A stretch of 64,000 bases of DNA, taken from contig PXBW01000079.1 in the NCBI GenBank assembly GCA_003566775.1, forward strand, positions 18,635-82,634, written 5' to 3'. A model generated the notes under the pieces. That model ran no database searches. It saw nothing but the letters and a program-made list of their open reading frames with translations, and was not told the DNA's origin. The DNA is from a candidate division WS1 bacterium (lineage in GTDB: Bacteria > Armatimonadota > Zipacnadia > Zipacnadales > UBA5352). Every line of letters begins with the position of its first letter. The first letter of the stretch is position 1. Positions 33,075 to 54,688 of the stretch are shown one piece after another. The position numbers and the translations under genes are program-made.

Positions 33075-33176
33075 CCGTGAAGCGGCATCGATCCGCACGG
33101 ATGAAGGACCCGCGCATCCCAGCACCGAAGAATCCTGCTCCGTGTGGAATCTCATCTCTCGTTGAGGAGACAGGCC

Positions 33177-40468: not shown

Positions 40469-42013
40469 TCAGCCATCGGTCGACTCAACCAGCGCCGCGG
40501 TGGTGTCGAACTCGGGCTTAAGTCGTGCATACAGGTTCTGATAAAGCTCGTGGTAACGCGCGTACAGCCCGTGCGCACTCTCGTCGACTCCCGGAGTGTC
40601 AACGAGATCGATGGTGCGCTCACAGGCCTCCGGCACGCCGTCGTAAATTCCCGCCGCGACGGCTGCGAGCAACGCCACGCCGTAGGCCGGACCTTCATCG
40701 ACGTTGATGGTGCTGTGCGGGTGGCCGGTGACATCGGTCTGGATCTGCCGCCAGAGTTCGCTGCGAGCACCGCCACCGGAGGCGCGCACCTCATCGATCG
40801 ACACGCTCATGCTCTCAAGTATTTCGAACGAGTCGCGCAGGCCGAATGCGACACCCTCCAGCACCGCCCGGATCATGTGCGGGCGTTCGTGCCGCAGGCT
40901 CAGTCCGAAGAATACACCGCGCGCATTAGGATTGGGGTAGGGCGTACGCTCACCTGACAGATAGGGGAGAAAGATCAACCCCTCGCTGCCGACCGGCGCC
41001 TGTGCGGCCTCCGCGGCCATCAGTTCGTAAGCATCAACGCCCATGTTGCGGGCGACATCGATCTCCCCCGGGCAAAGGGTGTCACGCAGCCACCGGAGCG
41101 ATCCACCGGCGGAGAGCATCACGCCCATCACATGCCACGTTCCCGGCACCGCGTGGCAGAAGGTATGTGTGCGCAGTTGCTCGTCCACCTTCGGCTCATC
41201 AAGGTGCGCGAAGACCACGCCGGAGGTGCCGGTGCTTACCGAGACGACACCGCCGCGCACGATCCCGTTACCGACCGCGCCCGCCGCCTGGTCGCCGCCG
41301 CCGCCGACCACCGGCGTCCCGGCAGCGAGGCCGGTAAGCTCTGCCGCCTGCGCGCTGATGGTGCCGGTAACCTCGGGCGATTCGTACACCCGTGGCATCC
41401 ACTCCCGCGGCAGTTCGAGGCGATCGAGCATCACCTCGGACCAGCGCCGCTTTGGAACGTTGAATAGCGACGTGCCGGAGGCGTCGGAGACCTCTGTGGC
41501 GTACTCCCCGGTGAGTCGCAGCCGCACGTAGTCCTTGGGCAGCAGCACTTTCTGAACTCGCGCGTAGTGCTCCGGCTCCTCATCGCGCAGCCAGATGATC
41601 TTCGGCGCGGTAAAGCCGGTGAGCACCGGGTTCAGCGTCTCGGCGATCACGTCTTCCTCGCCGACTGTCTGGGTGATGGTGCGACACTGTCGGGCGGTGC
41701 GCTGATCGCACCAGAGGATCGCCGGACGGATGATGTCGTCGTGACTGTCGAGGAAGACTGAGCCGTGCATCTGACCGGAGAGTCCCACGCCGACGATGTC
41801 CTCCGGATCGATCTCCGCCGCCTCTATCGCCGCCGGCACGCTTACGCAGGTGGCGTTCCACCAGTCATCGGGATCCTGCTCCGCCCATCCGGGCCGTGGC
41901 GTGGAGAGGTCGTACTCCGTCGCGTGGCTGGCGACGACCGCGCCGTCTTCGTCAATCAGCAGCGCGCGGGTGCTGGTCGTGCCCACGTCGATGCCGAGCA
42001 GGTAAGTCATTGT
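40469..42013 (-). CDS. xylB: xylulokinase (FGGY carbohydrate kinase family)
   Basis: MTYLLGIDVGTTSTRALL start and the FGGY N- and C-terminal domains (GGGARSELWRQI). GGAGGGAGG RBS. The ORF track extends 7 codons upstream. Confidence 0.85.
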   Translation of the reverse strand, partial: TMTYLLGIDVGTTSTRALLIDEDGAVVASHATEYDLSTPRPGWAEQDPDDWWNATCVSVPAAIEAAEIDPEDIVGVGLSGQMHGSVFLDSHDDIIRPAILWCDQRTARQCRTITQTVGEEDVIAETLNPVLTGFTAPKIIWLRDEEPEHYARVQKVLLPKDYVRLRLTGEYATEVSDASGTSLFNVPKRRWSEVMLDRLELPREWMPRVYESPEVTGTISAQAAELTGLAAGTPVVGGGGDQAAGAVGNGIVRGGVVSVSTGTSGVVFAHLDEPKVDEQLRTHTFCHAVPGTWHVMGVMLSAGGSLRWLRDTLCPGEIDVARNMGVDAYELMAAEAAQAPVGSEGLIFLPYLSGERTPYPNPNARGVFFGLSLRHERPHMIRAVLEGVAFGLRDSFEILESMSVSIDEVRASGGGARSELWRQIQTDVTGHPHSTINVDEGPAYGVALLAAVAAGIYDGVPEACERTIDLVDTPGVDESAHGLYARYHELYQNLYARLKPEFDTTAALVESTDG

Positions 42014-42040
42014 CTGCCTCCCTCGCGCATGCAAGCTCTC

Positions 42041-42418
42041 TCAGGCGCGCTCGACCCTGACGGTCTCTCCGGCGCTGACCGATTTCAGCGCGTCGAAGTC
42101 ACCCTCCATCCTGCCAATGACCATCACCGGACTCGCCGGACGGATCTCCTCGGCGGTGCTCATCGGCGTCATGCCGAAGAAAATGCAGAAAGCGGAACCC
42201 GGCGGCCAGTAGCCGAGATCACCGAGTTCGACCGCCGACTGCATGTCCTCGGCGGGAGCGTCCACATCGATGCTGAAGTAGATCTCCTCGCCCCAGGTAC
42301 TGGCCGATGCCTCGACCGGCAGTGCCTCGGCGATCTGCTGCGCGCAATCACTGTCGTTGAGCTGTGCTTCGACTTCCACATCTCCGACCGTGATACGTAT
42401 CGGAACGGACACATTCAT
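42041..42418 (-). CDS. cyclophilin-like-fold protein (DUF369 / PF04126 family)
   Basis: About 125 aa. Motifs WGEEIYF, GDLGYWPPGSAFCIFFG, PASPVMVIG match the cyclophilin-like DUF369 family. Confidence 0.55.
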   Translation of the reverse strand: MNVSVPIRITVGDVEVEAQLNDSDCAQQIAEALPVEASASTWGEEIYFSIDVDAPAEDMQSAVELGDLGYWPPGSAFCIFFGMTPMSTAEEIRPASPVMVIGRMEGDFDALKSVSAGETVRVERA

Positions 42419-42467
42419 CCCTCCTCGCTTCATCCCCGACAACTGCGGATCTGCGGGTGTTCACTGC

Positions 42468-43340
42468 TTACGCGAACAGTCTAAGGTACTGGAGCCCTCG
42501 CGTAAAGCCTTCCTCACGGCCGAGGGCTCGATCCTCATGCTCGATGCTCAGGACACCGTCGAAGCCGTTGTCGCGCAGGCGCGCGACGTAAACGCCCCAG
42601 TCGATCTCACCGAAGCCGGGTATAACGTAACGCCACCAGCTTCGCCCGTCGCGGTTCCCCAGCCAGCGCAGCTTATGCTGCACGATCTCGGTGTCCTTGG
42701 CATGCGTGTGGAAGATGCGATCGGCGAAGACCTCAACGGCGTGAAGGTGGTCGATCTGCTGGTGGTACAGGTGCGATGGGTCGAAGTTGAGCCCGAAGTT
42801 CTCATGTGGGACTGCCTCGAAGATGTGCTCGAAGTGCCCGAGGTGCATGATGTTGGTCGCGAACCAGTTCTCCATCGCGAAGCGCACCCCCATCTCCGCC
42901 GCCCGCGGACAAAGGTCGTTATAGAAGGGTGCGGCGATCTCGTCGATCGTCTCGTAGCGGTCCATCTCGCCGCAGGGCTTGCCCGCGAGGCAGCCCACGT
43001 TCTGCACGCCGTTGGCCGAGGCCATCTCGACGGCCGCGCGCAGGACGTCCTGATTCCTCTCGCGCTCGCTCTCGTCCGCATCGCTGATATCCACGTAGCA
43101 GGCGATCTGACTGATCTGCAATCCAGCGTCGCGTACGCGCTCGATGATCGCCTCGGCCTCGCCCGCCTCCATCTCAACGTTCAGGTGCTCGCAACCGGGT
43201 CTTACGTCGATCTCCAGAGCATCGAAACCGGCCTCGCTTGCGAACTCGACTATCGTGTCCATCTTCTCACCGCGGAAGGGCGCAGTGAGCATTCCCACCT
43301 GCATCTCACTCATCTCCTGTAGCTGCTGTCTCAATCGCAC
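42468..43340 (-). CDS. sugar phosphate isomerase/epimerase (xylose-isomerase-like TIM barrel)
   Basis: AMENW, FDPSHL and HAKD metal-ligand motifs of the xylose-isomerase-like TIM-barrel fold. 290 aa. Confidence 0.75.
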   Translation of the reverse strand: MRLRQQLQEMSEMQVGMLTAPFRGEKMDTIVEFASEAGFDALEIDVRPGCEHLNVEMEAGEAEAIIERVRDAGLQISQIACYVDISDADESERERNQDVLRAAVEMASANGVQNVGCLAGKPCGEMDRYETIDEIAAPFYNDLCPRAAEMGVRFAMENWFATNIMHLGHFEHIFEAVPHENFGLNFDPSHLYHQQIDHLHAVEVFADRIFHTHAKDTEIVQHKLRWLGNRDGRSWWRYVIPGFGEIDWGVYVARLRDNGFDGVLSIEHEDRALGREEGFTRGLQYLRLFA

Positions 43341-44479
43341 TGCTTGCCCGCGAGGAAGCAGCGCACCATCTGTTCGGAGGTGAACGCTATCATAGCCTTC
43401 GCCCTCTCGGGCTCCATCGCCTCCGTGAGAGTCATCGGACCGGTCAGGACCGAAGCGAGTGCGTGGAAGCCACGCTCATGCAGTTTGACGGCATCGAGCG
43501 AGACGCCGCCTCCGATAGCTACCACCGGGATGCTTTGTCTTCCGGCCACCGAGGCAACCCCGGCGGGAGTTTTGCCGAATGCTGTCTGAGTGTCAATCGC
43601 ACCCTCGCCGGTTATGCACAGGTCGGCCTCGCGCATCGCCTCCGGAAGATCCACCGCGTCGATCACGATCTCGACACCGGGTTCGAGATTCGCTCCGCAG
43701 AACGCCACGAGGCCCGCGCCGAGGCCGCCCGCGGCGCCTGCACCCGGAATGTCGCGTACATCGAGACCAAGGTCGCGCTGCACGACATGCGAGAATCTGC
43801 GCAGGTTGCGGTCGAGCACCTCGACATCCTTGGACGCTGCACCTTTCTGCGGTCCATAGACGAATGCCGCGCCGTTTTCACCGTAAAGAGGATTGTCCAC
43901 GTCACAGGCCACGCGAATCTCGGCGTCCTCGAGTCGCGGATCGGCGTCGGCCATCTCGATGGTCGCGAGGCGGCCGAGTTCGGCGCCGCCGAAACCGATC
44001 TGCTCGCCGTCCTCGTCCAGGAGGCGCACTCCGAGAGCCGCGGCCATGCCCGCTCCGGCATCCGTGGTCGCGCTGCCGCCGATGCCCACTATGAGCTTGC
44101 GCCGTCCCTCGTCGAGCGCCGCCCGGATAAGTTCGCCCGTGCCGAAAGTCGTCGTCTTTAGCGGATCGCGCCGGTCTTCCGGCACCAGTGGCAGCCCCGA
44201 CGCGGCGGCCATCTCGATCACGGCGGTCTCATCGTCCCCCAGCAGGCCGTAGGTGGCCTCAACCGCTTCTCCCAGCGGCCCGGTGACGCTCTCGGTCACC
44301 AGTTTACCGTCTGTCGCATCAACCAGGGACTGCACGGTACCCTCGCCGCCGTCCGCCATGGGGACCTGCGCGATCTCGAACTCGGGGTCGATCCTCTCGA
44401 TGCCGGCGGCGGCGGCCTCGCAGACCTCAAGGGCGGTGAGACAGCCCTTGAAGGAATCGGGCGCGATGACGATTCTCAC
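43331..44479 (-). CDS. glycerate kinase (GlxK/GarK family)
   Basis: VRIVIAPDSFKGCLTA start, a GTG with an AGGAGTG RBS at 44479. GxGGSATTDAG and downstream motifs of the glycerate kinase I family. The ORF track extends to 44515. Confidence 0.85.
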   Translation of the reverse strand: MRIVIAPDSFKGCLTALEVCEAAAAGIERIDPEFEIAQVPMADGGEGTVQSLVDATDGKLVTESVTGPLGEAVEATYGLLGDDETAVIEMAAASGLPLVPEDRRDPLKTTTFGTGELIRAALDEGRRKLIVGIGGSATTDAGAGMAAALGVRLLDEDGEQIGFGGAELGRLATIEMADADPRLEDAEIRVACDVDNPLYGENGAAFVYGPQKGAASKDVEVLDRNLRRFSHVVQRDLGLDVRDIPGAGAAGGLGAGLVAFCGANLEPGVEIVIDAVDLPEAMREADLCITGEGAIDTQTAFGKTPAGVASVAGRQSIPVVAIGGGVSLDAVKLHERGFHALASVLTGPMTLTEAMEPERAKAMIAFTSEQMVRCFLAGKQCD

Positions 44480-44560
44480 GGATCTCAGCACTCCTGTTGA
44501 AGCCGCGGCAGCCACCCGGTGGCGGCCGCCGCGGCCGTTGGTGTCGCTGGATGATGCGTC

Positions 44561-45508
44561 TTACGCACCGAGCATCGCCCACGCCTGCTGGAAGGCGCGC
44601 TTGGTGCCTGCGATCAGCAGGTCGGAATCCTCATCACCGACCGGTGCTACCTCAAAGGTCACGATCGGCCTGTCAGTCGGAAGCTCCTTGTCGAAGTAGC
44701 CCACGTATATCAGCGTCTCGAGGAAGCGCACCAGATCCTCGACGTCGTTCTCGCTGCCCGGATAGCCGAAGCCGGGGTGCTTGTCACCGTAGGCATCATG
44801 GTGCTCGTCTTCCATCAAGGCGTTGCCCACGTGGATGTGGATCAGGTGATCGACGGTGGGCGCGAGGAACTCCTGCGCGCTCTCGCTCAGAAGCGGCATG
44901 TGTGAGAGGTCCTGCGTCAGACCGAAGTTGTGCACCTGCTCCTTGACGCGATCCGCAAGCTCGACCGCGCGCGGCGTGGGCCCGATGAGCGAGCACTTGT
45001 CGATCGTGTCATCGAACTGCTCAAGCGAGAGCCACACCGGCTCCCCGTCGCCCGCCTTGCTCTGCGAGTACTCGCAAAGCTCCACGCACGAATCCACCAT
45101 CGCAGCCATCGCGCTGTCGCGGTCCTCCGGGTTGTCCGGTCCGGAGAGGAAAGCACAGATCCGGCAGCCCAGTTCGTACGCCTGATCGATCGAGTTCTTC
45201 ACTGCGTCCACGGCCTTCTTCCGCTCGCCGTCATCAAGCGAGTTGATGTCGAGTTGGTTGATAAGCAGCGGCGGCTGTGAGCCCATCCCGAGCTTGATGT
45301 GGCTGGTCATTGCGATCTGCTTGAGCCCGTCAATTACCCCCTGATGCTGACTGGGGCGGACCTCCAGCACCTGAAAGAAATCGTCGAGGGCGATCTTCCT
45401 TGCGGTCTCGAGGATCATGTCAGGGTCATCGTCCTGGATGATCGGGTAGGCCATGAAGTGAACGATCCCGAGGTCCATCATGTCGCGCCAGTGTTTGTCG
45501 CTGTACAT
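44561..45508 (-). CDS. sugar phosphate isomerase/epimerase-like TIM-barrel protein
   Basis: 315 aa. Xylose-isomerase-like TIM-barrel pattern (FEVAPVGDED, HIHVGN). Confidence 0.65.
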   Translation of the reverse strand: MYSDKHWRDMMDLGIVHFMAYPIIQDDDPDMILETARKIALDDFFQVLEVRPSQHQGVIDGLKQIAMTSHIKLGMGSQPPLLINQLDINSLDDGERKKAVDAVKNSIDQAYELGCRICAFLSGPDNPEDRDSAMAAMVDSCVELCEYSQSKAGDGEPVWLSLEQFDDTIDKCSLIGPTPRAVELADRVKEQVHNFGLTQDLSHMPLLSESAQEFLAPTVDHLIHIHVGNALMEDEHHDAYGDKHPGFGYPGSENDVEDLVRFLETLIYVGYFDKELPTDRPIVTFEVAPVGDEDSDLLIAGTKRAFQQAWAMLGA

Positions 45509-45809: not shown

Positions 45810-47105
45810 ATGAACCGGCTGGTCATGATGGCTGCGGCGATGTCTCTGTGTACGGCCGTTATCGCGCAGGACAATCCCTCGCCCCCTGAGGAACCGTCCC
45901 GCGTGCTGGCCATCGTCGAGGACACTGAGATTAGCTCTGATGACCTCTGGTGGTTTATGGAGCAGACGCGCGGGGGCGATATACTCGATGAACTGATACT
46001 GAGCCGACTGCTTGACGCAGAGGCGAAGCAGAAGCAGATCAACATCGGGGAGCCGGATGTGGACGAGGCGCTCGCCCGGTTGCGGGAGCAGTATGCCACT
46101 GAGGAGGAATTCAGCCGCTGGCTGGCAGAGAGCGGTCAGACACTCAAGGGGCTCAGGATGCAGTTGCAGCAGGAGCTTCTCATCGACCGCCTGCTGGAGG
46201 AGCGCATGGGGCTCACCGATGAGGGTATCCGAAGATACTACGAATCACATCCGCACGAGTTCACCGAGGAACCGCGCGTACGTCTGCTGGACATAGTGAC
46301 AGACACGATCGCCGACGCCTTCGCGGCGCGTGAGCGGCTGGCCGCTGGGGAATCTTTCGCCGAAGTTGCGCGCGAGATGTCGCAGGACCCAACCGCCAAG
46401 GAGGGCGGCGATCGTGGCTGGCTCACGCCCGAGGACGTTCGCAATGCGGATCTGCGTGAAGTCATATTCGAGTTGCAGGAGGGCGAGGTCTCCGATCCGA
46501 TCGAAGCGGTGGATCACTTTCACGTGCTCTATGCGCGGGAGGCAGTTCCCGGCCGCCTGCCGGATCTGGAGGAGGTGCGCCCGCAGGTGATTGAGCGTAT
46601 CCGTGAGCGGCGTGGCATCTCGGAGGAACTCTTCCTGGCACTGCTCAAGCGCCGTGCCGAGATCGAGGTCAGATGGCCCGAGCATCAACATCTAAACGAC
46701 TACTACGCCGATCTGAGCAGAATCAAGGTCGTTGTCGATGATCGGCGCGTCGAGGTTCCGGTGGAGCCGCGTCTGCTGCCGAACTCGAATCTGATAGTGC
46801 CGGCTCAGCCTCTTCTCGAGGCGATGGGCGCTGACGTGGCGTGGAGCGAGGAGGCCGGTGTGCTGGAGGTGCGGCGGGATGGCGTCACTCTCCGCATGGT
46901 CCAGGGCCTCGATATAATGGCCACGGGTGAAGAGGAGCGACGGATGCCGGAGCCGGCGCGACGGGAGGACGGCGTGCTGATGATCTCGCCGCGCGCGCCC
47001 GTATCTGCACTCGGCGGCGAGCTTTTCTGGAACCGCGCGGACAATACTTTGTATGTTAACTCGTACATCGACGATACGGTCGGAGAGATGAACGAACTCC
47101 CGTAG
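45810..47105 (+). CDS. secreted SurA/PrsA-like parvulin peptidyl-prolyl isomerase with C-terminal Cu-amine-oxidase-N-terminal-like domain
   Basis: Signal peptide MNRLVMMAAAMSLCTAVIAQ. SurA-like chaperone N-domain. PpiC/parvulin motif (VAREMSQDPTAKEGGDRGWL). C-terminal domain (IVPAQPLLEAMGADVAWSEEAGVLEV) resembling the Cu_amine_oxidN1 beta domain. AAGGAGAG RBS before the ATG at 45810; the ORF track starts at 45480. Confidence 0.65.
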   Translation: MNRLVMMAAAMSLCTAVIAQDNPSPPEEPSRVLAIVEDTEISSDDLWWFMEQTRGGDILDELILSRLLDAEAKQKQINIGEPDVDEALARLREQYATEEEFSRWLAESGQTLKGLRMQLQQELLIDRLLEERMGLTDEGIRRYYESHPHEFTEEPRVRLLDIVTDTIADAFAARERLAAGESFAEVAREMSQDPTAKEGGDRGWLTPEDVRNADLREVIFELQEGEVSDPIEAVDHFHVLYAREAVPGRLPDLEEVRPQVIERIRERRGISEELFLALLKRRAEIEVRWPEHQHLNDYYADLSRIKVVVDDRRVEVPVEPRLLPNSNLIVPAQPLLEAMGADVAWSEEAGVLEVRRDGVTLRMVQGLDIMATGEEERRMPEPARREDGVLMISPRAPVSALGGELFWNRADNTLYVNSYIDDTVGEMNELP

Positions 47106-47277: not shown

Positions 47278-48729
47278 TTGGCCCACTCCAGCCCCCAACC
47301 AGCGGAAGTACCGGTCCTGCGTATACTGCACGAGCGCCCGGACGAGTGCGCCCACCGCACGCTTACGCGGGGGCAGGCACTCGCTGTCCTCTTCATCCTC
47401 GCTCTACTGATCGCTCTGATCGCCTGGCGGCCGCTTGCGAGCCTGATCGTCCTGAACGCTCTCGCCATCATCTTCTACGTTGTGCACTCGCTATACAAGT
47501 TCTACCTCGTATATGTCTCGCTCGAGCGTCCAGTCCTGTTCGACGCAACTGAGGATGAACTACGCGATCTCGACGAGGCGACGCTGCCCACCTACACCCT
47601 GCTGATTCCCCTGTATCGCGAGGCCGCGGTACTGCACAGACTCGTTCAGGGCGTCAGAAACCTCGACTACCCCGTCGAGAAGCTTGACGTGATGCTTCTG
47701 CTGGAAGAAGACGACACTGAGACGATCGCTGCCGCGGAGGCCATGGATCTTCCCCCACACATTCGGCCCGTGGTCGTGCCCGACAGTGAGCCGAAGACCA
47801 AGCCGAAGGCCTGTAACTACGGGCTCTTCACCTGTGAGACCGATCTGCTGGTCATCTACGACGCCGAGGATCGGCCTGAGCCGGATCAGCTCAAGAAGGC
47901 GGCCATCGCATTCCGTCGCGCGCCCGATGACGTGGTATGCATTCAGGCGAAGCTCAACTACTACAACCAGCGGCAGAATCTGCTCACCCGCTGGTTCACC
48001 GCCGAGTACTCCGTCTGGTTCGACCTCTTCCTGCCCGGACTGACGGCCTCCGGCGCGCCCGTGCCCCTTGGTGGCACCAGCAATCACTTCCGCGTCGATG
48101 TGCTGAAGGAGCTTGGCGGCTGGGACCCGTTCAACGTGACCGAGGACTGCGACCTCGGCGTGCGCCTGCACAAGCACGGCTGGCGCACCGCGATGCTCGA
48201 CTCGACCACCTGGGAGGAGGCGAACGGGGCGTTCTTCTCGTGGTTCCGCCAGCGCTCGCGCTGGGTCAAGGGTTACCTGCAGACATGGCTTGTGCATACG
48301 CGCAGACCGCTTCGAATCATCAGCGAACTCGGGCTCGCGGGCTGGTTCTCTTTTCAGATGACTATCGGCGGCTCGCTCGTATGTTTCCTGATCAACCCGA
48401 TCTACTGGGCGATGACGATCTACTGGCTGTTCACACACGCAGGCTTCATCAGCGTCCTCTTTCCGCCCGCGATCTACCTGCTGGGCAGTTTCTGCCTCTT
48501 CGGCGCCAACTTCGTCTTCGTGTATATGGCCGTCGCCGGATGCATGCATCGGGGGTACTACGACCTCGTGAAGTACTCCCTGCTCACTCCCGTTTACTGG
48601 CTGATGATGAGTATAGGGGCGTACAAGGCCTTCGCGCAGATCATCGTACGCCCGCATTACTGGGAGAAGACCGACCACGGTATCTTCGAATTCGAGGATG
48701 CCGGGTTCGACGACGGTGATTCCGCATGA
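47278..48729 (+). CDS. membrane-embedded family-2 glycosyltransferase (processive, cellulose/chitin-synthase-like, QxxRW motif)
   Basis: N-terminal TM helices. GT-A catalytic core with DAED (DxD) and TED. FRQRSRW (QxxRW) motif. Several C-terminal TM helices. 483 aa. Confidence 0.8.
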   Translation: MAHSSPQPAEVPVLRILHERPDECAHRTLTRGQALAVLFILALLIALIAWRPLASLIVLNALAIIFYVVHSLYKFYLVYVSLERPVLFDATEDELRDLDEATLPTYTLLIPLYREAAVLHRLVQGVRNLDYPVEKLDVMLLLEEDDTETIAAAEAMDLPPHIRPVVVPDSEPKTKPKACNYGLFTCETDLLVIYDAEDRPEPDQLKKAAIAFRRAPDDVVCIQAKLNYYNQRQNLLTRWFTAEYSVWFDLFLPGLTASGAPVPLGGTSNHFRVDVLKELGGWDPFNVTEDCDLGVRLHKHGWRTAMLDSTTWEEANGAFFSWFRQRSRWVKGYLQTWLVHTRRPLRIISELGLAGWFSFQMTIGGSLVCFLINPIYWAMTIYWLFTHAGFISVLFPPAIYLLGSFCLFGANFVFVYMAVAGCMHRGYYDLVKYSLLTPVYWLMMSIGAYKAFAQIIVRPHYWEKTDHGIFEFEDAGFDDGDSA

Positions 48730-50294
48730 CCGAGCAGCGACATGGACCGGCTGCAAGCTCCGCACCGGAGCGGCCGGAAGCACGTCTGCGCCGCTTCGAG
48801 CTTCCGATCGTCTTCCTTCTGGGCGTGGTGCTTACACTCGCGGTCGGGTTGCGCGGTCGCCTCGTAGACCTCCAGGTCAACTGGGACGCCCTCGCAGCGG
48901 TCGCGCATGCCTATGACGTATTTAACGCACAGGACTACGCGAATCTCGCCATGATCGGTTTCGTCCAGCCACCGCTCCCCACGCTGTTGCAGCTTCCGCT
49001 GGTGCTGATGGCGCCCTCACTCGCAACGTCGGGCGTCGCGGCGAACGTTCTCGGAGCGATCTACGCCGGGACGTCGGCTGCGCTTATGCTTGGCCTCGCG
49101 GCGGAGTGCGGTCTGTCCCGCGCCCTGCGCTGGCCATTGGTGGCGCTCTTCGCGCTCCACCCGCTTGTGCTCGGCCCGGCTGCGTCAGGAGCCCCGATGG
49201 CTCTGCTGACCACCCTGCTTCTCGGCGCGTCGTGGAGCATGCTGCGCTGGGCGCGCACTGAGGCTCTGCGAGACCTTATCGCCTCCAGCGCTCTCCTCTC
49301 CGGCGCGGTCATCACCCGCTATGAGTCCGTATTCGTGGTCGTGGGCGTCCTGATCTACCTCGCCTGGTGCACATGGCGAAAGGACAGGTCGGGCAGGAAG
49401 CTTGAGGGGACATTGATTGCCTTCACCTTGCCCATCGCATACGTCGCGGGCGTCTGGATCATGTCCAACTGGGCGATTATGGGCGATCCATGGCACTTCC
49501 TCCGTGAGACTTTTGATGCTCGCGTGGTGCCTCCGGGGGCCAGAGTGTTCTCTATTGTCGTAAGCACGTCGCTGCTGGCGTTCTTCCCGGTGCTTGCCCT
49601 GATCTACCATCAGATGCATGGAGCATGTCGATATCCGGCGGACGCGCGGCCGGTGGCATGGATGGTGCTTTCCGTGCTCGTGGCCCCGATGGTCTTCCCC
49701 GCGGCATTCGTGCTGCCGGGCGCGGACGGCCACTGGGCAAGCCTCTCCACCGTTCTCGCCATGGTCCTTGCGGGCGGCTATGTGATGCTTGCCTCCATCA
49801 TCGGCGATCTCATGCAGGGAAGAGGGAGACGGGCGCTGGGCATCAGCGCTGTGGTTCTGGTGGCCGGACTCGGAGCAGCCGCATGGCTCTACGCCGGTGG
49901 AGCCGCCGCTGCTCTCTCGCCCGCGCGCATTCTGGCCGGTCACAGCCCGCTGGCCGACACGGCGCGTGCCGAGATCGAGGCGGCAGATCTTCTCCGGGAT
50001 ACGACGCTTCCCCCGGGACAGAAGCACCTCATCGCAGGATGGCCGGGCTTCGCGGTTGTGCTCTTCGCCGGGAGGACGGGCGAGATGGTGGTGATCCGAA
50101 CTCCTGAATTGCTGGAACGCATCGACGCCCTCTGGGCGGGCAGCCGTCTGGTGCTGCTCGTCACCGATGAGCCCGGCGCGGTGCCGCCCGCCGCTGTCGA
50201 CGCAGACCTTGGTCTCCCCCCTGATCTCACGCTGCAGCGCGAGTGGGTAGCGGGACCCTGGCACTGCTACCGGGTGGTGAGAGCGGCCCCGTAG
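48726..50294 (+). CDS. polytopic integral membrane protein (possible GT-C-type glycosyltransferase or polymer-export partner of the upstream GT2)
   Basis: 522 aa, 10 or more predicted TM helices. Start overlaps the GT2 stop (ATGA). The coincident antisense ORF 49185-50348 I judge to be an artefact. Confidence 0.5.
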   Translation: MTEQRHGPAASSAPERPEARLRRFELPIVFLLGVVLTLAVGLRGRLVDLQVNWDALAAVAHAYDVFNAQDYANLAMIGFVQPPLPTLLQLPLVLMAPSLATSGVAANVLGAIYAGTSAALMLGLAAECGLSRALRWPLVALFALHPLVLGPAASGAPMALLTTLLLGASWSMLRWARTEALRDLIASSALLSGAVITRYESVFVVVGVLIYLAWCTWRKDRSGRKLEGTLIAFTLPIAYVAGVWIMSNWAIMGDPWHFLRETFDARVVPPGARVFSIVVSTSLLAFFPVLALIYHQMHGACRYPADARPVAWMVLSVLVAPMVFPAAFVLPGADGHWASLSTVLAMVLAGGYVMLASIIGDLMQGRGRRALGISAVVLVAGLGAAAWLYAGGAAAALSPARILAGHSPLADTARAEIEAADLLRDTTLPPGQKHLIAGWPGFAVVLFAGRTGEMVVIRTPELLERIDALWAGSRLVLLVTDEPGAVPPAAVDADLGLPPDLTLQREWVAGPWHCYRVVRAAP

Positions 50295-50391
50295 CTGTGA
50301 AAGGCAATCGTGGCAAAGCGTCTTTCTGTATTGCGTTGCTCGGAACACCTCACTCTTCCAACGAGCATATCGGATAAGAGGGATGATCGGA

Positions 50392-51792
50392 ATGAGCGAT
50401 CAGTTGCTCGCAGGAGTCGCAAAGATAGACATCACGCCACCGCTTGGCCTCACCATGGCCGGCTACGGCGGTCGCACCGAGACCTCCGATGGTATAGAGG
50501 ATCCGCTCTTCGCACATGCGCTGGTGCTGGAGCAGGGGGATGAGGCCTGCGGTATCGTCGTCGGCGACGTCATAGGCCTCCCACGTCCGCTCACCGAGAT
50601 GCTCCGCGAGCGTGTCACCGAGCTTTGCGGCATTCCGGGCGAGAAGGTTCTCGCCAGTGGTACGCACACGCACTGGGGTCCCGCGCTGAAGAGCACCGGA
50701 TACCTCAGCGATCGTCTCAATGAGGCGGTCTGCGAGGATTACGCAATCACCTGCGTCCGGCAGATGGCGGGAGCGATCTCCGAGGCCTGGCGGAGGCGTG
50801 AACCGGCCGTGGCCCTTGCGGGAACAGGTGAGGCCGATCTCGTTAAGTTCAACCGCCGTCCGGTCAATGTCGAGGGATGCACCGAGATGAACATGCGGTT
50901 GCCGCTCGATCAGGCGCTGGTCGCCTCGCGCGTCGGCGCTGAACTCGCCGACACGTGGGAGAAGGGTGGGCCGCCAGGAGAGCGTCTCAGTACGCCACAG
51001 GAAGGGGTTCAGGGGCTGCGCGTCGGTCCCGCGAACCCTCATCTTCCTCTGCTGAAGCTTTCCACCTCTGATGGAAAGCCGCTCGCAGCGATGGCCGCGT
51101 TTGGCTGCCATCCAGTCTGCGGCGGCGATCCGGAGACGACCTTCTACCGCTATTCAGCCGACTGGCCGGGCTACGCGCGCAGGGTGCTCGAACTTGCCCT
51201 CGGCTGTCCGGCGGTCTTCCTGCTCGGCGGGGCTGGAGATCAGGTACCCTTGCGCCGCACCGGCGACTCGCGCAGGCGCATTGGACACTCGATCGGCGGT
51301 GAGGCGTTACGCGTCTGGGAACTGCTCGACGGGGAGAGCATCGGCCCACTGCGTGTGGCGAGTCGCCGTGTGAATCTGCCCCTGCGGGACCTGCCGACCG
51401 TCGCCGACGCGAGGCGGGCGCTTGACGAAACCGACGATCCAACCGGCGCAGGAGCGTCTCGGGAGCGCCACGAACTTACACTTGCGGAAAGGTATGAGGG
51501 CCGGGACAGTGTGAGTGTGGAGATATGGGCGATGGCGCTGGGCGATCGCTGGGGCCTCCTCGGAGTGCCGGGGGAGATACTGTGCGAGATCGAACTGCAG
51601 ATACGTCAGCGCTCGGCATTCGCGAATACGTGCGTGATCGAACTCGCGCTTGACGCGCCAGGGTACATGCCGACCGATGCGGCCATCGATGAGGGTGGCT
51701 ACGAGTCCGGATGGTCGCCCTTCGGCCACGGCACGGAGGCCGCGCTGGTAGAAGCCGCTTCGGCGCTGCTCGACTCCGTTGGTGGTGGCTGA
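50392..51792 (+). CDS. neutral/alkaline ceramidase-like (PF04734-like) hydrolase
   Basis: N-terminal pattern GVAKIDITPPLGLTMAGYGGR...GIEDPLFAHALVL matches the ceramidase-family N-terminal consensus (G.AK.DITP...M.GY...S.GI.D.L.ARALV). About 466 aa. AGAGGG RBS 9 nt before the ATG at 50392. Confidence 0.55.
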   Translation: MSDQLLAGVAKIDITPPLGLTMAGYGGRTETSDGIEDPLFAHALVLEQGDEACGIVVGDVIGLPRPLTEMLRERVTELCGIPGEKVLASGTHTHWGPALKSTGYLSDRLNEAVCEDYAITCVRQMAGAISEAWRRREPAVALAGTGEADLVKFNRRPVNVEGCTEMNMRLPLDQALVASRVGAELADTWEKGGPPGERLSTPQEGVQGLRVGPANPHLPLLKLSTSDGKPLAAMAAFGCHPVCGGDPETTFYRYSADWPGYARRVLELALGCPAVFLLGGAGDQVPLRRTGDSRRRIGHSIGGEALRVWELLDGESIGPLRVASRRVNLPLRDLPTVADARRALDETDDPTGAGASRERHELTLAERYEGRDSVSVEIWAMALGDRWGLLGVPGEILCEIELQIRQRSAFANTCVIELALDAPGYMPTDAAIDEGGYESGWSPFGHGTEAALVEAASALLDSVGGG

Positions 51793-51983
51793 AGACGCAT
51801 CGCGGGTTCCTCGCAGTCACGGGCGGTCTTTGGTGCTGAGCGAGATGCGGCGTCGATGTTCCACCGGAGAAAGGTGCGTTCCTCCATCCAACAGCGCCGC
51901 CGGTGGCGACGGCAGCGGCATCTGCGCAATGCCCTGCTGCCGCATACAGCATGTAGCGAAGTGGTAGAGACAGGAGAAGTAAG

Positions 51984-52544
51984 ATGTCGGACAACGCGAG
52001 ACAGACCGGGGGTAATCTCGAATGCTACTCACGGCTCGCCGGCGAAGATGACCTCCCAGTGTTGGCAATCTTCGAACGCGAACTGGCTAAGATGTCTTTT
52101 CCCGAGGATCCGATCCTCGATCTGCAGTATCACACCGAGAAACTGCAGCGGGCGATGGATCGCGAGCCGGAAGGGATGATCGTGCAGGCGGTCTCCGCGG
52201 ACGACGCGCCGGTGGGCGACGAGATCGCGGCGTGGCTCTGGCTGGAGACGAAGACCACCCTGGCGACTTCTGAGCCATACGGTGTACTGCGCAGCATCTA
52301 CGTTCGTCGCCGCTACCGCCGCCACGGTCTTGCCCTGAGCCTGGCTGAGTACGCCATTCGTTACTTCGCCTCCCGCGATGTCAAGAAGATCATGGCGAAG
52401 GTCCATGCCGAAAACAGACCGGCGATCCAGGTACTCCGGCAGATCGGCTTCGATCCCCTGCATACAACCCTGCAGTTCCGCCTCGAACCCGGCGCGCCGT
52501 ACGTTTTCGATGAGGAAGACGAAGAGCGCCCGAACGAAGGCTGA
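51984..52544 (+). CDS. GNAT-family N-acetyltransferase
   Basis: RRRYRRHGLALSLAEYAIRYF (acetyl-CoA binding R/Q-x-x-G-x-G/A) and GNAT fold length (186 aa). Confidence 0.7.
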   Translation: MSDNARQTGGNLECYSRLAGEDDLPVLAIFERELAKMSFPEDPILDLQYHTEKLQRAMDREPEGMIVQAVSADDAPVGDEIAAWLWLETKTTLATSEPYGVLRSIYVRRRYRRHGLALSLAEYAIRYFASRDVKKIMAKVHAENRPAIQVLRQIGFDPLHTTLQFRLEPGAPYVFDEEDEERPNEG

Positions 52545-52672: not shown

Positions 52673-54688
52673 CTACTCGCGAACCAGTGCGGGAGCGGGC
52701 GCGAAGTAGTGTATGATGATCCAGATCGTCAGGATGACGCTCACCCCGAGGATCAGGCCGAAAGCGATCGGCCGCAGCTTCTGGAAGCCCCGATAGCCTG
52801 CAACGCGAACAACCAGGACCTTCCAGAGCCACCCGAGGAAGATCGACATCCAGTAGCGATCGGTCGGCCAGCCAAGCCACGCGATATACCCCAGCGGATG
52901 CAGCGGCCACCAGACGAATCTTCGTCGGAGGGCAACAAGACCCCAGGTGAGTAGAGCGCCTCCACCCATCGCCGCCCACTCAACAGGTGCCATGGTCGTG
53001 GGGGACTGAATGTACCGCACCAGCATGTTTGTGGTGTTCAGGGATGCGCCACTCGGCCACCAGCCAAGCTTCGGCACTCCCCAGGAGTAGATGATGTGAA
53101 GCGAGGTCACATGGCTTGCAAGGATCGCCACGACCACCGCCGCCATCCCCGCGAAAATGATCTTGCGGCGATCCGCTCCCATCACCGAACCGATCTTGAG
53201 GCCCTGGGCTACGGCGCCCATGTTCATCGTTGCTGTGGAGCGAATCTGAGTCCAACTCGTCATGGTCATCAGCGTCATGTTCTGAGCCCCGATGCGCTCC
53301 GGACCGGCAATCTCGAAGATCGCCTCGTTGATCCTGAACGGTGTTGAGTATATGAACATGCCGCCCTCGGCGACCACTCGGGCCACGACCATTCCCGCCA
53401 GCGGGAAGGCTATGTACTGAGCCAGCGCCCATGTCAGGTCCATGCCCACCCAGGTGCACCACCAGATGATGAAGATGAAGGCACCCACAAAGCCGAGCAC
53501 CGCAAGCCGATAGGGTTCATCGGCGTCGGCCGCACCCTCGCGGGGTCTAATCGCACCGATCGCGATCCTTACGGCTCGCCGTACGTGATCCCGTGCCGAC
53601 CAGAGCAACGCGCCGGCCATTAATATGTAGGCTCCTATCGTCTGAAAGCGGAAGAATTGCGCGTGCCCCGTGTCAACTCCCACGCTCATCCGAACGAACT
53701 CCTGTATACGCCGGAACCAGTAGAAGAACCAAAGCGAGAAGCCGACCTCGGACGTGAGAAGATAAGCGACCCCTACCATCTCCGGATACAGATGGATGGG
53801 TATGCGGTTGAATGCGGCCCAGGGGCCTCCCAGCGTCGCTTCAGTCGTTCGCTGCAGGTCGATATCCGGCAAAGCAGGCCAGTAACCGTGCAGGCCCTTG
53901 ATCGTAAACAGAATCACTGGCACTGCGAATGCCACCCACATCATGGGGCTGCGGATCAGTTGCGAGGCGACTGCAGGCTCACCCTCGACCGTCTCCACCG
54001 GTACCTCTACCAGCGGATACAGGAGGCGCTCCTCTCTTTCCCAGCGATGTGCCAGTATGGCCATGAAACACAGCACCAGCCAGTACACCGCCAGTATGAA
54101 TGGCGTCCAGACGGTTAGGGGCGTGATCCACGCTCGCCACGGAACGCTTTGCCCGGGCGGCAATCCCTCGAACGCCCAGCGAATCGCCGGGGCCTGCGGG
54201 TTCGTGTCCGGCACCAGCATCGGGTTGAGCTGCTCCAGATACAGCTCCGGTGGAGCAATCTCGGGAGTTGCGTAGTAAACAATGCCGAGCGTGTTGAGGT
54301 AGAAGTGCTGGGCGAACTCCTGACCCGCGATGGCGCCCGCCACCATCAGCATCAGGAACACCAAGAGCAACTCGCGGGCGGTGAGCTTCCATCGCCGCGT
54401 TACCCGTCCGACCAGGCGCAGCGCGGCATTCCCACCGAGCAGGGCGAGAAGTATGAAGACTGCGCCACGCGGCAGGTAGCCGGTTCCTATGATCTCGTAG
54501 CGCAGGAATACACCAAAGCAGCCCACCACGGTGAAGGCAACCACCATCACCAGTCCTACAGTTATCGCGCGAACCGTTACGCCTGTGTGTTCAGTGCCGT
54601 GAACTTCCTCACGCGCGGTTCGCGACAGCTCTACCTTATCCTGAGTTGACAGACCCGACACCTCACTTGTGACATCGAGCTTTGGCAA
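52673..54688 (-). CDS. large polytopic membrane protein of unknown function (671 aa)
   Basis: About 16 predicted TM segments rich in Trp/Tyr. No recognisable family motif. Confidence 0.55.
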   Translation of the reverse strand: MPKLDVTSEVSGLSTQDKVELSRTAREEVHGTEHTGVTVRAITVGLVMVVAFTVVGCFGVFLRYEIIGTGYLPRGAVFILLALLGGNAALRLVGRVTRRWKLTARELLLVFLMLMVAGAIAGQEFAQHFYLNTLGIVYYATPEIAPPELYLEQLNPMLVPDTNPQAPAIRWAFEGLPPGQSVPWRAWITPLTVWTPFILAVYWLVLCFMAILAHRWEREERLLYPLVEVPVETVEGEPAVASQLIRSPMMWVAFAVPVILFTIKGLHGYWPALPDIDLQRTTEATLGGPWAAFNRIPIHLYPEMVGVAYLLTSEVGFSLWFFYWFRRIQEFVRMSVGVDTGHAQFFRFQTIGAYILMAGALLWSARDHVRRAVRIAIGAIRPREGAADADEPYRLAVLGFVGAFIFIIWWCTWVGMDLTWALAQYIAFPLAGMVVARVVAEGGMFIYSTPFRINEAIFEIAGPERIGAQNMTLMTMTSWTQIRSTATMNMGAVAQGLKIGSVMGADRRKIIFAGMAAVVVAILASHVTSLHIIYSWGVPKLGWWPSGASLNTTNMLVRYIQSPTTMAPVEWAAMGGGALLTWGLVALRRRFVWWPLHPLGYIAWLGWPTDRYWMSIFLGWLWKVLVVRVAGYRGFQKLRPIAFGLILGVSVILTIWIIIHYFAPAPALVRE

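What the first reader, a model, noticed from the sequence alone, without database searches (positions are those of the whole stretch)
47278..51792. GT2 processive glycosyltransferase translationally coupled to a 522-aa polytopic membrane protein and followed by a neutral-ceramidase-like hydrolase
The GT2 has the DxD, TED and QxxRW hallmarks of processive beta-glycan synthases. Its stop overlaps (ATGA) the start of a 10+-TM membrane protein that could be the translocation or acceptor partner (GT-C/PMT_2-like). Ninety nucleotides later lies a protein whose N-terminus matches the neutral/alkaline ceramidase family.

This could be a synthase-exporter pair for an exopolysaccharide plus a lipid-amide hydrolase. 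It could also be a glycolipid or glycosphingolipid-like pathway. Either would be noteworthy in this lineage. A GNAT acetyltransferase follows.
Basis: partly seen in the sequence, partly recalled or inferred. Interest (0 to 1): 0.5.

Follow-up and report, generated by a model that had tools for sequence, protein, structure and literature searches.

The report
Synthase-type glycosyltransferase hard-wired to GT-C partner
An Armatimonadota genome carries a cellulose-synthase-like sugar polymerase gene translationally coupled to a membrane glycosyltransferase of the ArnT/PMT (GT-C) fold, a pairing that recurs in several phyla (sometimes as one fused gene) and that I did not find described, while the neighbouring ceramidase-like gene looks like an unrelated bystander.

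Summary
Window 47278-52544 (+) encodes a 483-aa GT2 with DAED, TED and QRSRW motifs, a 522-aa polytopic protein whose ATG overlaps the GT2 stop (ATGA), a neutral-ceramidase-like protein and a GNAT.

- **Conservation:** all 38 Armatimonadota loci with enough upstream sequence carry GT2 directly before GT-C, usually after a secreted SurA-like PPIase.
- **Relatives elsewhere:** GT2s 45-57% identical (source names on some family members: Chloroflexota, Actinomycetota) carry N-terminal MshEN c-di-GMP receptor domains. They are again followed by one to three GT-C paralogues, or are fused to a GT-C. Some operons add BcsB and a GGDEF cyclase, others a separate GtrB-type GT2.
- **Best model:** the synthase makes and exports a beta-glycan, and the GT-C acts on it at the outer face.
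- **Ceramidase-like protein:** it keeps the zinc-site residues but is short and cytoplasmic. It is linked to the pair only in a shallow clade, and no sphingolipid genes are in the window.

New variant of a known kind; moderate interest.

The parts
45810..47105 (+). Secreted SurA/PrsA-like peptidyl-prolyl isomerase with a C-terminal Cu_amine_oxidN1 domain. It is the conserved upstream neighbour of the pair in Armatimonadota. The mechanical ORF starts at 45480; the likely start is the Met of MNRLVMMAAAMSLCTAVIAQ.
   Evidence: Pfam Rotamase_2 4e-18, Rotamase 9e-14, Cu_amine_oxidN1 2e-12, SurA_N weak. Signal-peptide-like N-terminus and start position. Found upstream of the GT2 in most Armatimonadota loci, even where it is only 27-32% identical.
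47278..48729 (+). Synthase-type family-2 glycosyltransferase, 483 aa. It has 2 N-terminal TM helices, a GT-A domain (DAED 195-198, TED 288-290), an interface helix with QRSRW 325-329, about 4 C-terminal TM helices, and an invariant W462-E-K-T-x-H-G tail.
48726..50294 (+). GT-C-fold membrane glycosyltransferase, 522 aa, about 11 TM helices plus a C-terminal alpha/beta domain (residues ~414-519). Its start codon overlaps the GT2 stop (ATGA). The first external loop carries W53, D54, H61 and D64.
50392..51792 (+). Short cytoplasmic member of the neutral/alkaline ceramidase superfamily (catalytic domain only), substrate unknown. Probably not part of the GT2/GT-C unit.
   Evidence: Pfam PF04734 32.1 bits. 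Profile against PDB 4wgk 3.6e-23 and 2zws 6.8e-20 in three collinear stretches; invariant H95, H97, H243, E398, Y428, E441 and nearly invariant Y440. No TM or signal peptide. Variable contexts elsewhere.
51984..52544 (+). GNAT-family N-acetyltransferase. It travels with the ceramidase-like gene in the close clade.
   Evidence: Pfam Acetyltransf_1 1.8e-13. The CER-GNAT pair is seen in L011, L012, L015, L016, L019 and L023-L025.

Best explanation
**The functional unit** is the gene pair 47278-50294. The ceramidase-like gene and the GNAT are not part of it.

**Proposed mechanism**
- The GT2 is a BcsA/HAS/PgaC/NfrB-class membrane-embedded synthase. It uses a cytoplasmic nucleotide sugar to build a beta-linked glycan and passes it through its own transmembrane region.
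- The translationally coupled GT-C enzyme sits beside it, with its active-site loop and C-terminal domain on the outer face.
- There the GT-C acts on the emerging polymer. Most likely it adds side-chain sugars from a polyprenyl-phosphate-sugar donor. Alternatively it transfers the chain to an envelope acceptor.
- That donor would be made by a separate GtrB-type GT2. This gene lies in the same operon in some relatives from other lineages, and must lie elsewhere in the genome in Armatimonadota.
- In Armatimonadota the pair lacks the c-di-GMP-binding MshEN domains seen in relatives. It is preceded instead by a secreted SurA-like PPIase, which suggests a constitutive envelope polymer rather than a biofilm matrix on demand.

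**Shown:** the folds, the motifs, the gene coupling, the conservation, the fusions and the operon contents.
**Inferred:** processivity, the product, catalytic activity of the GT-C, its acceptor and its donor.
For: **1. The GT2 is synthase class**
- TED and QxxRW align with BcsA; the profile hits BcsA at 3.7e-17.
- Foldseek agrees, as does hhalign to PgaC and NfrB but not ArnC.
- An invariant TED implies a hydroxyl acceptor rather than a phosphate (inference from BcsA mechanism).

**2. The partner is GT-C**
- Conserved acidic and histidine residues lie in the loop after TM1: D54 in 37/42, H61 in 42/42, D64 in 41/42.

**3. The two genes are coupled**
- ATGA overlap in the window.
- ATGA or GTGA sits at the GT2 stop in 24 of 38 Armatimonadota loci.
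- GT2 lies directly upstream of GT-C in 38 of 38 loci with enough upstream sequence. The same holds in two loci found from the GT2 side.

**4. The module extends beyond the Armatimonadota loci**
- A full HMMER scan found 2616 representatives at E<=1e-30. The best are 45-56% identical over the whole GT2 and fused to MshEN domains.
- Source names on family members include Chloroflexota and Solirubrobacteraceae.
- In 54 metagenomic loci, a GT-C homologue follows the GT2 directly in 23, and in one more it lies two genes downstream on the other strand. E-values run mostly from 1e-41 to 1e-13, often with the same 4-nt overlap, and sometimes as 2-3 tandem paralogues.
- Three loci have GT2 and GT-C in one ORF: L108, L109 and L114.

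**5. Operon contents in relatives**
- BcsB (1e-51 to 4e-75) plus a GGDEF cyclase in L067 and L069-L071, alongside the GT-Cs.
- A separate GtrB-type GT2 in L079, L080, L084 and L088, right after the GT-C. It hits GtrB 5ekp at 1.6e-92 and is 35% identical to E. coli ArnC. So the synthase-type GT2 is not the lipid-donor maker.

**6. A secreted hydrolase in sister genomes**
- A Malectin plus GH52/GH116-like (alpha/alpha)6 hydrolase with a signal peptide follows the GT-C in sister Armatimonadota genomes. This fits a beta-linked extracytoplasmic glycan product.
Against: - There is no biochemical evidence at all.
- No GtrB-type GT2, GtrA-type flippase, BcsB, outer-membrane exporter or c-di-GMP module was found in the window or in any Armatimonadota locus. 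The donor for the GT-C is therefore hypothetical here.
- The GT-C has no detectable sequence similarity to E. coli ArnT. Equivalence of D54/D64 with known GT-C catalytic residues was not shown structurally.
- Loci L074 and L075-L077 have BcsB directly after the GT2. No GT-C was detected in L074 or in the truncated L075/L076, and in L077 one lies further downstream on the other strand. The GT-C is therefore not always the immediate partner.
- About ten relatives have large unclassified polytopic partners instead.
Confidence: 0.55

Rival explanations
1. Lipid-linked glycan and protein (or envelope) glycosylation. The GT2 is a non-processive PcManGT-like enzyme that extends a polyprenyl-diphosphate-linked oligosaccharide at the inner face. 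The GT-C is an oligosaccharyl- or O-glycosyl-transferase (AglB/PglB/PMT-like) that transfers the glycan to secreted proteins. The upstream secreted PPIase handles those unfolded substrates.
Against: Close GT2 relatives (about 50% identical over the full length) sit in operons with BcsB, a GGDEF cyclase and MshEN domains, which are hallmarks of c-di-GMP-controlled exopolysaccharide synthases. The GT2 aligns with BcsA over 390 residues including the TM region, and its TM helices carry many invariant polar and aromatic residues. No priming phosphoglycosyltransferase or flippase lies nearby. The PPIase link is absent outside Armatimonadota.
Confidence: 0.15
2. Classical two- or three-component system. 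The GT2 itself makes the polyprenyl-phosphate-sugar donor (like ArnC, GtrB, DPMS or CsbB) and the GT-C transfers that single sugar to an outer-face acceptor.
For: GT2 next to GT-C is the textbook arrangement of ArnC/ArnT, GtrB/GtrX and CsbB/YfhO (described in PMC11127046 and PMC13390465; E. coli arn operon layout).
Confidence: 0.1
3. The GT-C-fold protein is a non-catalytic co-subunit that stabilises the synthase or guides the polymer, as BcsB does. It would be a GT-C fold without transferase activity, like PIG-U/GAB1.
Against: D54, H61, D64 and several Arg, Tyr and Glu residues are nearly invariant in the external loop and nearby positions. GT-C and BcsB co-occur in L067 and L069-L071, so one does not simply replace the other. 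A co-encoded GtrB-type donor synthase in other relatives implies a working GT-C.
Confidence: 0.1
4. One reading: a glycolipid or glycosphingolipid-like pathway. The GT2 glycosylates a ceramide-like or diacylglycerol lipid and the ceramidase-like enzyme turns it over.
For: Weak GT21 Pfam hit (33 bits). The ceramidase-like protein keeps the neutral-ceramidase metal-site residues. Sister genomes have a GH with a weak GH116 hit (1e-5).
Against: The ceramidase-like gene is absent from deeper Armatimonadota loci and from all 54 wider-family loci. Its homologues elsewhere have unrelated neighbours. It is cytoplasmic and truncated. No Spt-like gene lies in the 64 kb. GT2 relatives are linked to BcsB and c-di-GMP. 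A GT-C cannot use a phosphate-free glycolipid as donor (established GT-C biochemistry).
Confidence: 0.03

Closest known systems
Synthase-dependent exopolysaccharide systems: BcsA-BcsB cellulose synthase, PgaCD, hyaluronan synthase, E. coli NfrB
   Same: - GT-A domain with DxD, TED and QxxRW, flanked by TM helices.
- Best sequence and fold matches.
- Relatives carry c-di-GMP receptor domains (MshEN, as in NfrB) and BcsB in the operon.
- Shares the DAED and TEDxDxGxRL motifs with NfrB.
   Different: - Only 19-21% identical to PgaC and NfrB; it forms its own tight clade.
- The window protein has no PilZ or MshEN domain.
- No BcsB, PgaD or outer-membrane component in Armatimonadota loci.
- The obligate neighbour is a GT-C-fold enzyme, which none of the named systems has.
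Three-component extracytoplasmic glycosylation systems: GtrB/GtrA/GtrX, ArnC/ArnEF/ArnT, CsbB/GtcA/YfhO, PPPRS/MATE/GT136 (PMC11127046, PMC13390465)
   Same: - A GT-C-fold enzyme with an external loop carrying conserved acidic residues.
- In some relatives a true GtrB-type GT2 is encoded next to the GT-C.
- The likely role is post-polymerisation modification at the outer face.
   Different: - The gene coupled to the GT-C here is a synthase-type GT2, not the lipid-donor synthase.
- No flippase or donor synthase in the window.
- The presumed acceptor is the product of a synthase-dependent pathway rather than a Wzy- or ABC-dependent glycan, teichoic acid or lipid A.
BcsA-BcsG: phosphoethanolamine modification of nascent cellulose by a membrane enzyme docked on the synthase (PMC11470070)
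   Same: The concept is the same: a polytopic membrane enzyme physically associated with the synthase modifies the polymer as it emerges in the periplasm.
   Different: BcsG is an alkaline-phosphatase-superfamily pEtN transferase, not a GT-C. Here the modification would be a glycosyl transfer.
PcManGT (PDB 6yv7), archaeal membrane mannosyltransferase with a minimal cellulose-synthase-like fold
   Different: - It is 346 aa against 483 aa, and only 17% identical.
- Only the GT-A half matches at sequence level (residues 103-221).
- Its genomic and functional context is N-glycan assembly (my knowledge of the entry, not tested here).
Neutral/alkaline ceramidase (human 4wgk, P. aeruginosa 2zws; Pfam PF04734)
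   Same: The catalytic-domain profile matches at 3.6e-23 and 6.8e-20. The HxH, His, PGE and Tyr positions are conserved.
   Different: - About 466 aa against 646-688 aa; the alignment ends near residue 500 of the solved ceramidases, so the C-terminal domain is missing.
- No signal peptide.
- The single-sequence match is marginal (Pfam at cut-off; PDB E 0.003).
- No NCBIfam hit. Substrate unknown.

Membership tests
Membrane-integrated (processive) GT2 synthases (BcsA/PgaC/HAS/NfrB class) | GT-A domain with DxD, TED (catalytic base) and QxxRW motifs | tested here: met
   DAED 195-198, TED 288-290 and QRSRW 325-329 are invariant in 41 homologues. They align to BcsA, PgaC and NfrB.
Membrane-integrated (processive) GT2 synthases (BcsA/PgaC/HAS/NfrB class) | TM helices on both sides of the GT domain, packing into the synthase fold | tested here: met
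Membrane-integrated (processive) GT2 synthases (BcsA/PgaC/HAS/NfrB class) | Processive synthesis and translocation of a polysaccharide | not testable with these tools
   Needs an enzyme assay or product analysis. PcManGT as top fold hit shows that the fold alone is not proof.
Membrane-integrated (processive) GT2 synthases (BcsA/PgaC/HAS/NfrB class) | c-di-GMP receptor module (PilZ or MshEN) and a BcsB/PgaD-type co-subunit | tested here: not met
   The window GT2 has no extra domain. There is no BcsB, MshEN or GGDEF homologue in the window or in Armatimonadota loci. All of these are present in relatives.
Polyprenyl-phosphate glycosyltransferases (GtrB/ArnC/DPMS type GT2) | Full-length similarity to GtrB/ArnC/DPMS: GT-A domain plus juxtamembrane helices plus 2-4 C-terminal TM helices, and no TED/QxxRW | tested here: not met
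GT-C glycosyltransferases (ArnT/PMT/ALG/OST class) | GT-C fold: polytopic core with a long first external loop | tested here: met
GT-C glycosyltransferases (ArnT/PMT/ALG/OST class) | Conserved acidic catalytic residue in the first external loop | tested here: inconclusive
   D54 (37/42), H61 (42/42) and D64 (41/42) lie just after TM1. Their structural equivalence to the ArnT or PMT residues was not checked residue by residue.
GT-C glycosyltransferases (ArnT/PMT/ALG/OST class) | Sequence membership of a curated family (PMT_2/GT39/GT83) | tested here: inconclusive
   The window protein scores 20.4 bits, below the 26.1 cut-off. Weak hits occur in 28 of 42 homologues, best 4.6e-6. No similarity to E. 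coli ArnT by hhalign, and nothing in PDB by sequence.
GT-C glycosyltransferases (ArnT/PMT/ALG/OST class) | Use of a polyprenyl-phosphate-linked donor | not testable with these tools
   Indirect support only: a GtrB-type GT2 is co-encoded in 8 related loci. None was found in the window.
Neutral/alkaline ceramidase (PF04734) | Catalytic-domain HMM match | tested here: met
   Pfam 32.1 bits, equal to the cut-off. A family profile against PDB gives 3.6e-23 and 6.8e-20.
Neutral/alkaline ceramidase (PF04734) | Zinc-site and catalytic residues (HxH, His, Glu, Tyr) | tested here: met
   H95, H97, H243, E398, Y428 and E441 are invariant and Y440 is nearly invariant. They align with THTHSGP, HPVS, PGE and the Y..YE stretches of 4wgk and 2zws. 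The roles of these residues are from my knowledge of those structures.
Neutral/alkaline ceramidase (PF04734) | C-terminal domain and secretion or extracytoplasmic location | tested here: not met
   The protein is 466-469 aa against 646-688 aa, and its alignment to the solved ceramidases ends near their residue 500. No signal peptide or TM segment.
Neutral/alkaline ceramidase (PF04734) | Ceramide as substrate; sphingolipid synthesis genes in the genome | tested here: inconclusive
   No Spt-like gene among the ORFs of the 64-kb window. The only aminotransferase is DegT-type, at 8612-10024. The rest of the genome was not available.
GT21 ceramide glucosyltransferase | Specific best match to PF13506 | tested here: not met
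   PF13506 scores 33.4 bits against 110 and 98 bits for the general PF13641 and PF13632 on the same stretch.

The most novel reading that the evidence does not exclude
The pair represents an undescribed class of synthase-dependent glycan machines. A BcsA-like synthase is hard-wired to one or more GT-C enzymes by translational coupling, or by fusion in some lineages. The GT-C enzymes glycosylate or ligate the nascent polymer outside the membrane. The class would be ancient and spread across several phyla (source names on family members include Chloroflexota, Actinomycetota and a candidate Parcubacteria genome). It would be c-di-GMP-gated in some lineages. In Armatimonadota it would be constitutive and tied to a periplasmic foldase, possibly building a core envelope polymer.
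Probability: 0.35. Interest if true: 0.65.

Novelty: new variant of a known kind. Interest (0 to 1): 0.5.

Why it matters
- **Known modifications are non-sugar.** Synthase-dependent polysaccharides (cellulose, PNAG, alginate, hyaluronan, NfrB glycan) are known to be modified outside the cell only by acetyl, deacetyl, epimerase or phosphoethanolamine chemistry.
- **What a dedicated GT-C would add.** It would add extracytoplasmic glycosyl branching or ligation to that repertoire. It would also link two textbook pathways that are usually treated separately: synthase-dependent export and three-component GT-C glycosylation.
- **Testable predictions.** The fusions and tandem GT-C paralogues predict a physical complex and a branched product.
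- **Armatimonadota envelope.** For this little-studied phylum, the conserved PPIase/GT2/GT-C triad is a candidate core envelope-polymer system.
- **Glycosphingolipid idea.** It does not stand on present evidence. That matters for anyone annotating PF04734 hits as ceramidases in bacteria.

Tried and rejected
- **Sequence route to the membrane protein.** Single-sequence and profile searches against PDB found nothing, and hhalign to E. coli ArnT found nothing. Only the fold search resolved it.
- **AFDB.** A Foldseek search against afdb50 was not available, so no UniProt-annotated nearest neighbour (for example cyanobacterial monoglucosyl-diacylglycerol synthase) could be checked. That lipid-glycosyltransferase idea stays formally open. 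It is disfavoured by the BcsB, MshEN and GGDEF contexts of close relatives.
- **Names.** Source names for GT2 relatives were mostly absent or generic: 'glycosyltransferase XagB' and 'cellulose synthase/PNAG synthase-like'.
- **Large polytopic partners.** The 880-1107-aa proteins downstream of some relatives had no Pfam hit and no hhalign similarity to the GT-C family. They are left unclassified.
- **Regulatory signals.** The promoter and terminator scan of 45-55 kb gave nothing above shuffles. Rfam found nothing in the window.
- **Other conserved partners in distant Armatimonadota loci.** I found only variable neighbours: uronate-catabolism genes, DUF362 and MreBCD.
- **Literature.** Searches for a synthase-type GT2 paired with a GT-C, for Armatimonadota EPS, for MshEN-GT2 with BcsB, and for short bacterial ceramidase homologues found no description of this module. 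The library omits most subscription journals, so this is absence of evidence only.
- **GH in sister genomes.** It gave only marginal PDB hits (Malectin about 7e-4, GH52 xylosidase 0.008), too weak to name the product sugar.


Full report
**1. What is in the window**

Coordinates 47278-52544 carry four co-directional genes on the + strand.
- A 483-aa GT2 at 47278-48729, with a TTG start preceded by GAGGGAG.
- A 522-aa polytopic membrane protein at 48726-50294.
- A ceramidase-like protein. The ORF starts at 50383. The database protein is 466 aa, which implies a start at 50392, 9 nt after AAGAGGG.
- A GNAT at 51984-52544.

The ATGA overlap of the GT2 stop with the membrane-protein start is real. 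The following gap is 88-97 nt.

Pfam confirms the GT2 (PF13641 2e-31, PF13632 9e-28) and the GNAT. It gives a sub-threshold PMT_2 hit for the membrane protein (20.4 bits against a cut-off of 26.1). It gives a hit exactly at threshold for Ceramidase_alk (32.1 bits, residues 9-160). NCBIfam places the GT2 far below every curated equivalog, including CelA, PgaC and NfrB-like.

Names attached to homologues place the lineage in Armatimonadota, in 'Ca. Zipacnadia' and former candidate division WS1.

**2. The GT2 is a synthase-type enzyme, not a lipid-phosphate glycosyltransferase**

Motifs and sequence:
- DAED (195-198), TED (288-290) and QRSRW (325-329) are invariant in 41 homologues.
- TED and QxxRW align to those of BcsA.
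- A family profile hits BcsA at 3.7e-17.

Fold:
- The AlphaFold model (pLDDT 89.5) has two N-terminal TM helices, a GT-A domain, an interface helix carrying QRSRW and about four C-terminal TM helices.
- DPMS, ArnC and GtrB reach only 14.2-14.5, with about 200 residues aligned. Foldseek agrees.

Profile comparison with E. coli proteins fetched:
- PgaC 95.9% probability.
- NfrB 95.6%, sharing DAED and TEDxDxGxRL.
- ArnC 36%, restricted to the first half of the GT-A domain.

Two further points are inference. The retained TED base implies a hydroxyl acceptor. The many invariant polar and aromatic residues inside the C-terminal TM helices, plus an invariant W462-E-K-T-x-H-G tail, suggest that the TM region does more than anchor the protein.

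**3. The partner is a GT-C-fold glycosyltransferase**

Weak PMT_2 hits occur in 28 of 42 family members. The loop after TM1 carries W53 (42/42), D54 (37/42), H61 (42/42) and D64 (41/42). Further conserved Arg, Tyr, Glu and Asp residues follow. With an arginine-rich N-terminus inside the cell, this loop and the C-terminal alpha/beta domain (residues about 414-519) should face outward (inference).

**4. The pair is a conserved unit**

A scan of one genome per species found 48 loci, all Armatimonadota.
- In all 38 loci with enough upstream sequence, the GT2 sits directly before the GT-C.
- In 24 of these 38, the GT2 stop lies within ATGA or GTGA.
- Two loci reached from the GT2 side show the same arrangement, with more divergent partners.
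- The GT2 is far more conserved (59-87% identity) than the GT-C (33-71%) or the upstream secreted SurA-like PPIase (27-72%). The PPIase is nevertheless present in most loci.
- Everything else varies.

**5. The module reaches beyond the Armatimonadota loci, and the relatives explain it**

A full HMMER scan of 1.84 billion representatives found 12312 hits, 2616 of them at E<=1e-30. The best are 45-56% identical over the entire GT2 and are fused proteins.
- Some carry 2-5 N-terminal MshEN c-di-GMP receptor domains, sometimes with a receiver domain.
- Others are multi-GT fusions with extra GT2 and GT4 domains.
- Named members come from Chloroflexota and Solirubrobacteraceae. One MAG is labelled Sphingomonadaceae, and one is a candidate Parcubacteria genome.

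In 54 metagenomic loci recovered with one such fusion, an HMM of the Armatimonadota GT-C family gave these results.
- It finds a homologue directly downstream of the GT2 in 23 loci. In one more (L077) the homologue lies two genes downstream on the other strand. E-values run mostly from 1e-41 to 1e-13.
- Many of these show the same 4-nt overlap.
- Several have two or three tandem paralogues.
- L108 and L109 encode GT2 and GT-C in a single ORF. L114 encodes the GT2 fused to a PMT_2 domain that scores above the Pfam cut-off.

In a neighbour-joining tree of the GT2 modules, the family forms one tight clade far from NfrB (21% identity) and PgaC (19%). GT-C-partnered members are both basal and derived.

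Operon contents are telling.
- **L067 and L069-L071:** BcsB (1e-51 to 4e-75) and a GGDEF cyclase next to the MshEN-GT2 and its GT-Cs.
- **L074 and L075-L077:** BcsB directly after the GT2.
- **L079, L080, L084 and L088:** the order is MshEN-GT2, GT-C, then a 335-aa GT2 that is a genuine GtrB/ArnC-type polyprenyl-phosphate glycosyltransferase. It hits GtrB 5ekp at 1.6e-92 and is 35% identical to E. coli ArnC over the full length.

Together these contexts indicate three things. The synthase-type GT2 behaves as a BcsA analogue. The GT-C is an additional enzyme rather than a BcsB substitute. The GT-C's lipid-linked donor is made by a different GT2. No GtrB-type gene, BcsB, MshEN or GGDEF is present in the window or in any Armatimonadota locus.

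**6. Most likely mechanism**

- The GT2 polymerises and exports a beta-linked glycan.
- The coupled GT-C acts on it at the outer face. Side-chain glycosylation from a polyprenyl-phosphate sugar is the most likely action. Transfer of the chain to an acceptor is the alternative.
- In sister Armatimonadota genomes, a secreted Malectin plus GH52/GH116-like (alpha/alpha)6 hydrolase follows the GT-C. This recalls BcsZ and fits a beta-linked extracytoplasmic product.
- The window and its three nearest relatives lack that hydrolase.

My estimates:

| Claim | Probability |
|---|---|
| The two genes form one functional unit | about 0.85 |
| The GT2 is a true polymer synthase | about 0.6 |
| The GT-C is catalytically active on that product | about 0.5-0.6 |

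The product sugar is unknown.

The rivals are a PcManGT-like lipid-linked-glycan enzyme feeding a protein-glycosylating GT-C, a classical donor-synthase/GT-C pair, a non-catalytic GT-C scaffold, and the glycosphingolipid idea. They are weighed in their own section.

**7. The ceramidase-like gene**

At superfamily level the call is sound. A 31-sequence profile hits human (3.6e-23) and Pseudomonas (6.8e-20) neutral ceramidase in three collinear stretches. H95, H97, H243, E398, Y428 and E441 are invariant and Y440 is nearly invariant. They align with the HxH, His, PGE and Tyr stretches of those enzymes.

Several points argue against a role with the GT pair.
- The protein is about 200 residues shorter than the solved ceramidases, and its alignment to them ends near their residue 500, so the C-terminal domain is missing.
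- It has no signal peptide or TM segment.
- Its adjacency to the GT-C is seen only in this window and three close relatives.
- In the sister clade a secreted GH, and often an FAD oxidoreductase, lie between them. In deeper clades the gene is absent.
- No homologue occurs in the 54 wider-family loci.
- Homologues in Lentisphaerae and other lineages have unrelated neighbours.
- The gene order here is no better conserved than that of the divergent glycerate-kinase block upstream, so it reflects shared descent rather than function.
- No sphingolipid-synthesis gene is in the 64 kb.

It does travel with the GNAT. I read the two as a separate cytoplasmic amidase/acetyltransferase pair of unknown substrate.

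**8. Comparison and novelty**

The closest known systems are these.
- Synthase-dependent EPS machines: BcsAB, PgaCD, HAS and NfrB.
- Three-component GT-C glycosylation: Gtr, Arn, CsbB/YfhO and GT136 (PMC11127046, PMC13390465).
- As a concept, BcsG docking on BcsA to modify nascent cellulose (PMC11470070).

This locus combines the first two in a way I did not find described. The searchable library is incomplete, so this is only absence of evidence. I rate it a new variant of a known kind. Interest is 0.5. The glycosphingolipid angle that motivated the finding falls away. The GT2/GT-C module, with its fusions, tandem paralogues and c-di-GMP-gated relatives, is a worthwhile and testable lead.

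Noticed in passing
window 52673-54688 (-): A 671-aa polytopic protein with DUF6785 (5e-123) and DUF6784 (1e-27) lies convergent with the GNAT. Homologues lie near the GT2/GT-C pair in close relatives (L012, L015, L024; 69-72% identity). At 27-29% identity they also appear in the distant loci L026 and L057. This may be a further associate of the pair.
   Followed up: partly
L001 8597-11518; also L003, L004, L010-L025, L039: In sister genomes a secreted protein of about 950 aa follows the GT-C. It combines Malectin with a GH52/GtaA_6_Hairpin/GH116-like hydrolase and has a signal peptide. The window and its three nearest relatives lack it.
   Followed up: partly
L067, L069, L070, L071 (metagenomic loci): These operons combine BcsB, a GGDEF diguanylate cyclase, a GT2 with 2-5 N-terminal MshEN domains, and 2-3 tandem GT-C paralogues. 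This looks like a c-di-GMP-gated version of the module.
   Followed up: partly
L079, L080, L082, L084, L086, L088: A flavin amine-oxidase-like protein (Amino_oxidase 1e-29 in L079; the others are grouped with it by BLAST clustering) co-occurs with the GtrB-type GT2 in these six loci. It may be a sugar-modifying enzyme for the lipid-linked donor.
   Followed up: no
L095, L096, L098, L100, L102-L106, L117: GT2 relatives in these loci are followed by polytopic proteins of 880-1107 aa with 7-10 TM segments. They have no Pfam hit and no detectable similarity to the GT-C family. This may be a third partner type.
   Followed up: partly
window 45810-47105 (+), 61432-62400 (-), 62504-63757 (-): Three proteins in the window carry the Cu_amine_oxidN1 domain. 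One is the PPIase upstream of the GT2.
   Followed up: no
window 24040-34598 and 60339-61403: A set of glycan-degradation genes: BNR/sialidase-like proteins (24040-25104, 60339-61403), a 1188-aa GH2/GH42-like protein (26720-30286), an arylsulfotransferase-like protein (30303-31415) and a sulfatase (33144-34598).
   Followed up: no
window 40469-45508 (-): A divergent block of FGGY kinase, two xylose-isomerase-like TIM barrels and glycerate kinase. It is syntenic with the GT2 locus across the close clade and in the more distant L021 and L047. This shows that gene order here is conserved by descent.
   Followed up: yes
window 12815-14314 (+) and 20715-21833 (-): An MttB-family (trimethylamine methyltransferase-like) protein and a URO-D-like protein. 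A URO-D-like gene also sits next to a ceramidase-like homologue in L008/L009, and a weak URO-D-like ORF sits next to one in L005.
   Followed up: no
L008/L009 6001-8859: Two tandem ceramidase-like paralogues (468 and 451 aa) lie next to each other in an unrelated lineage.
   Followed up: no
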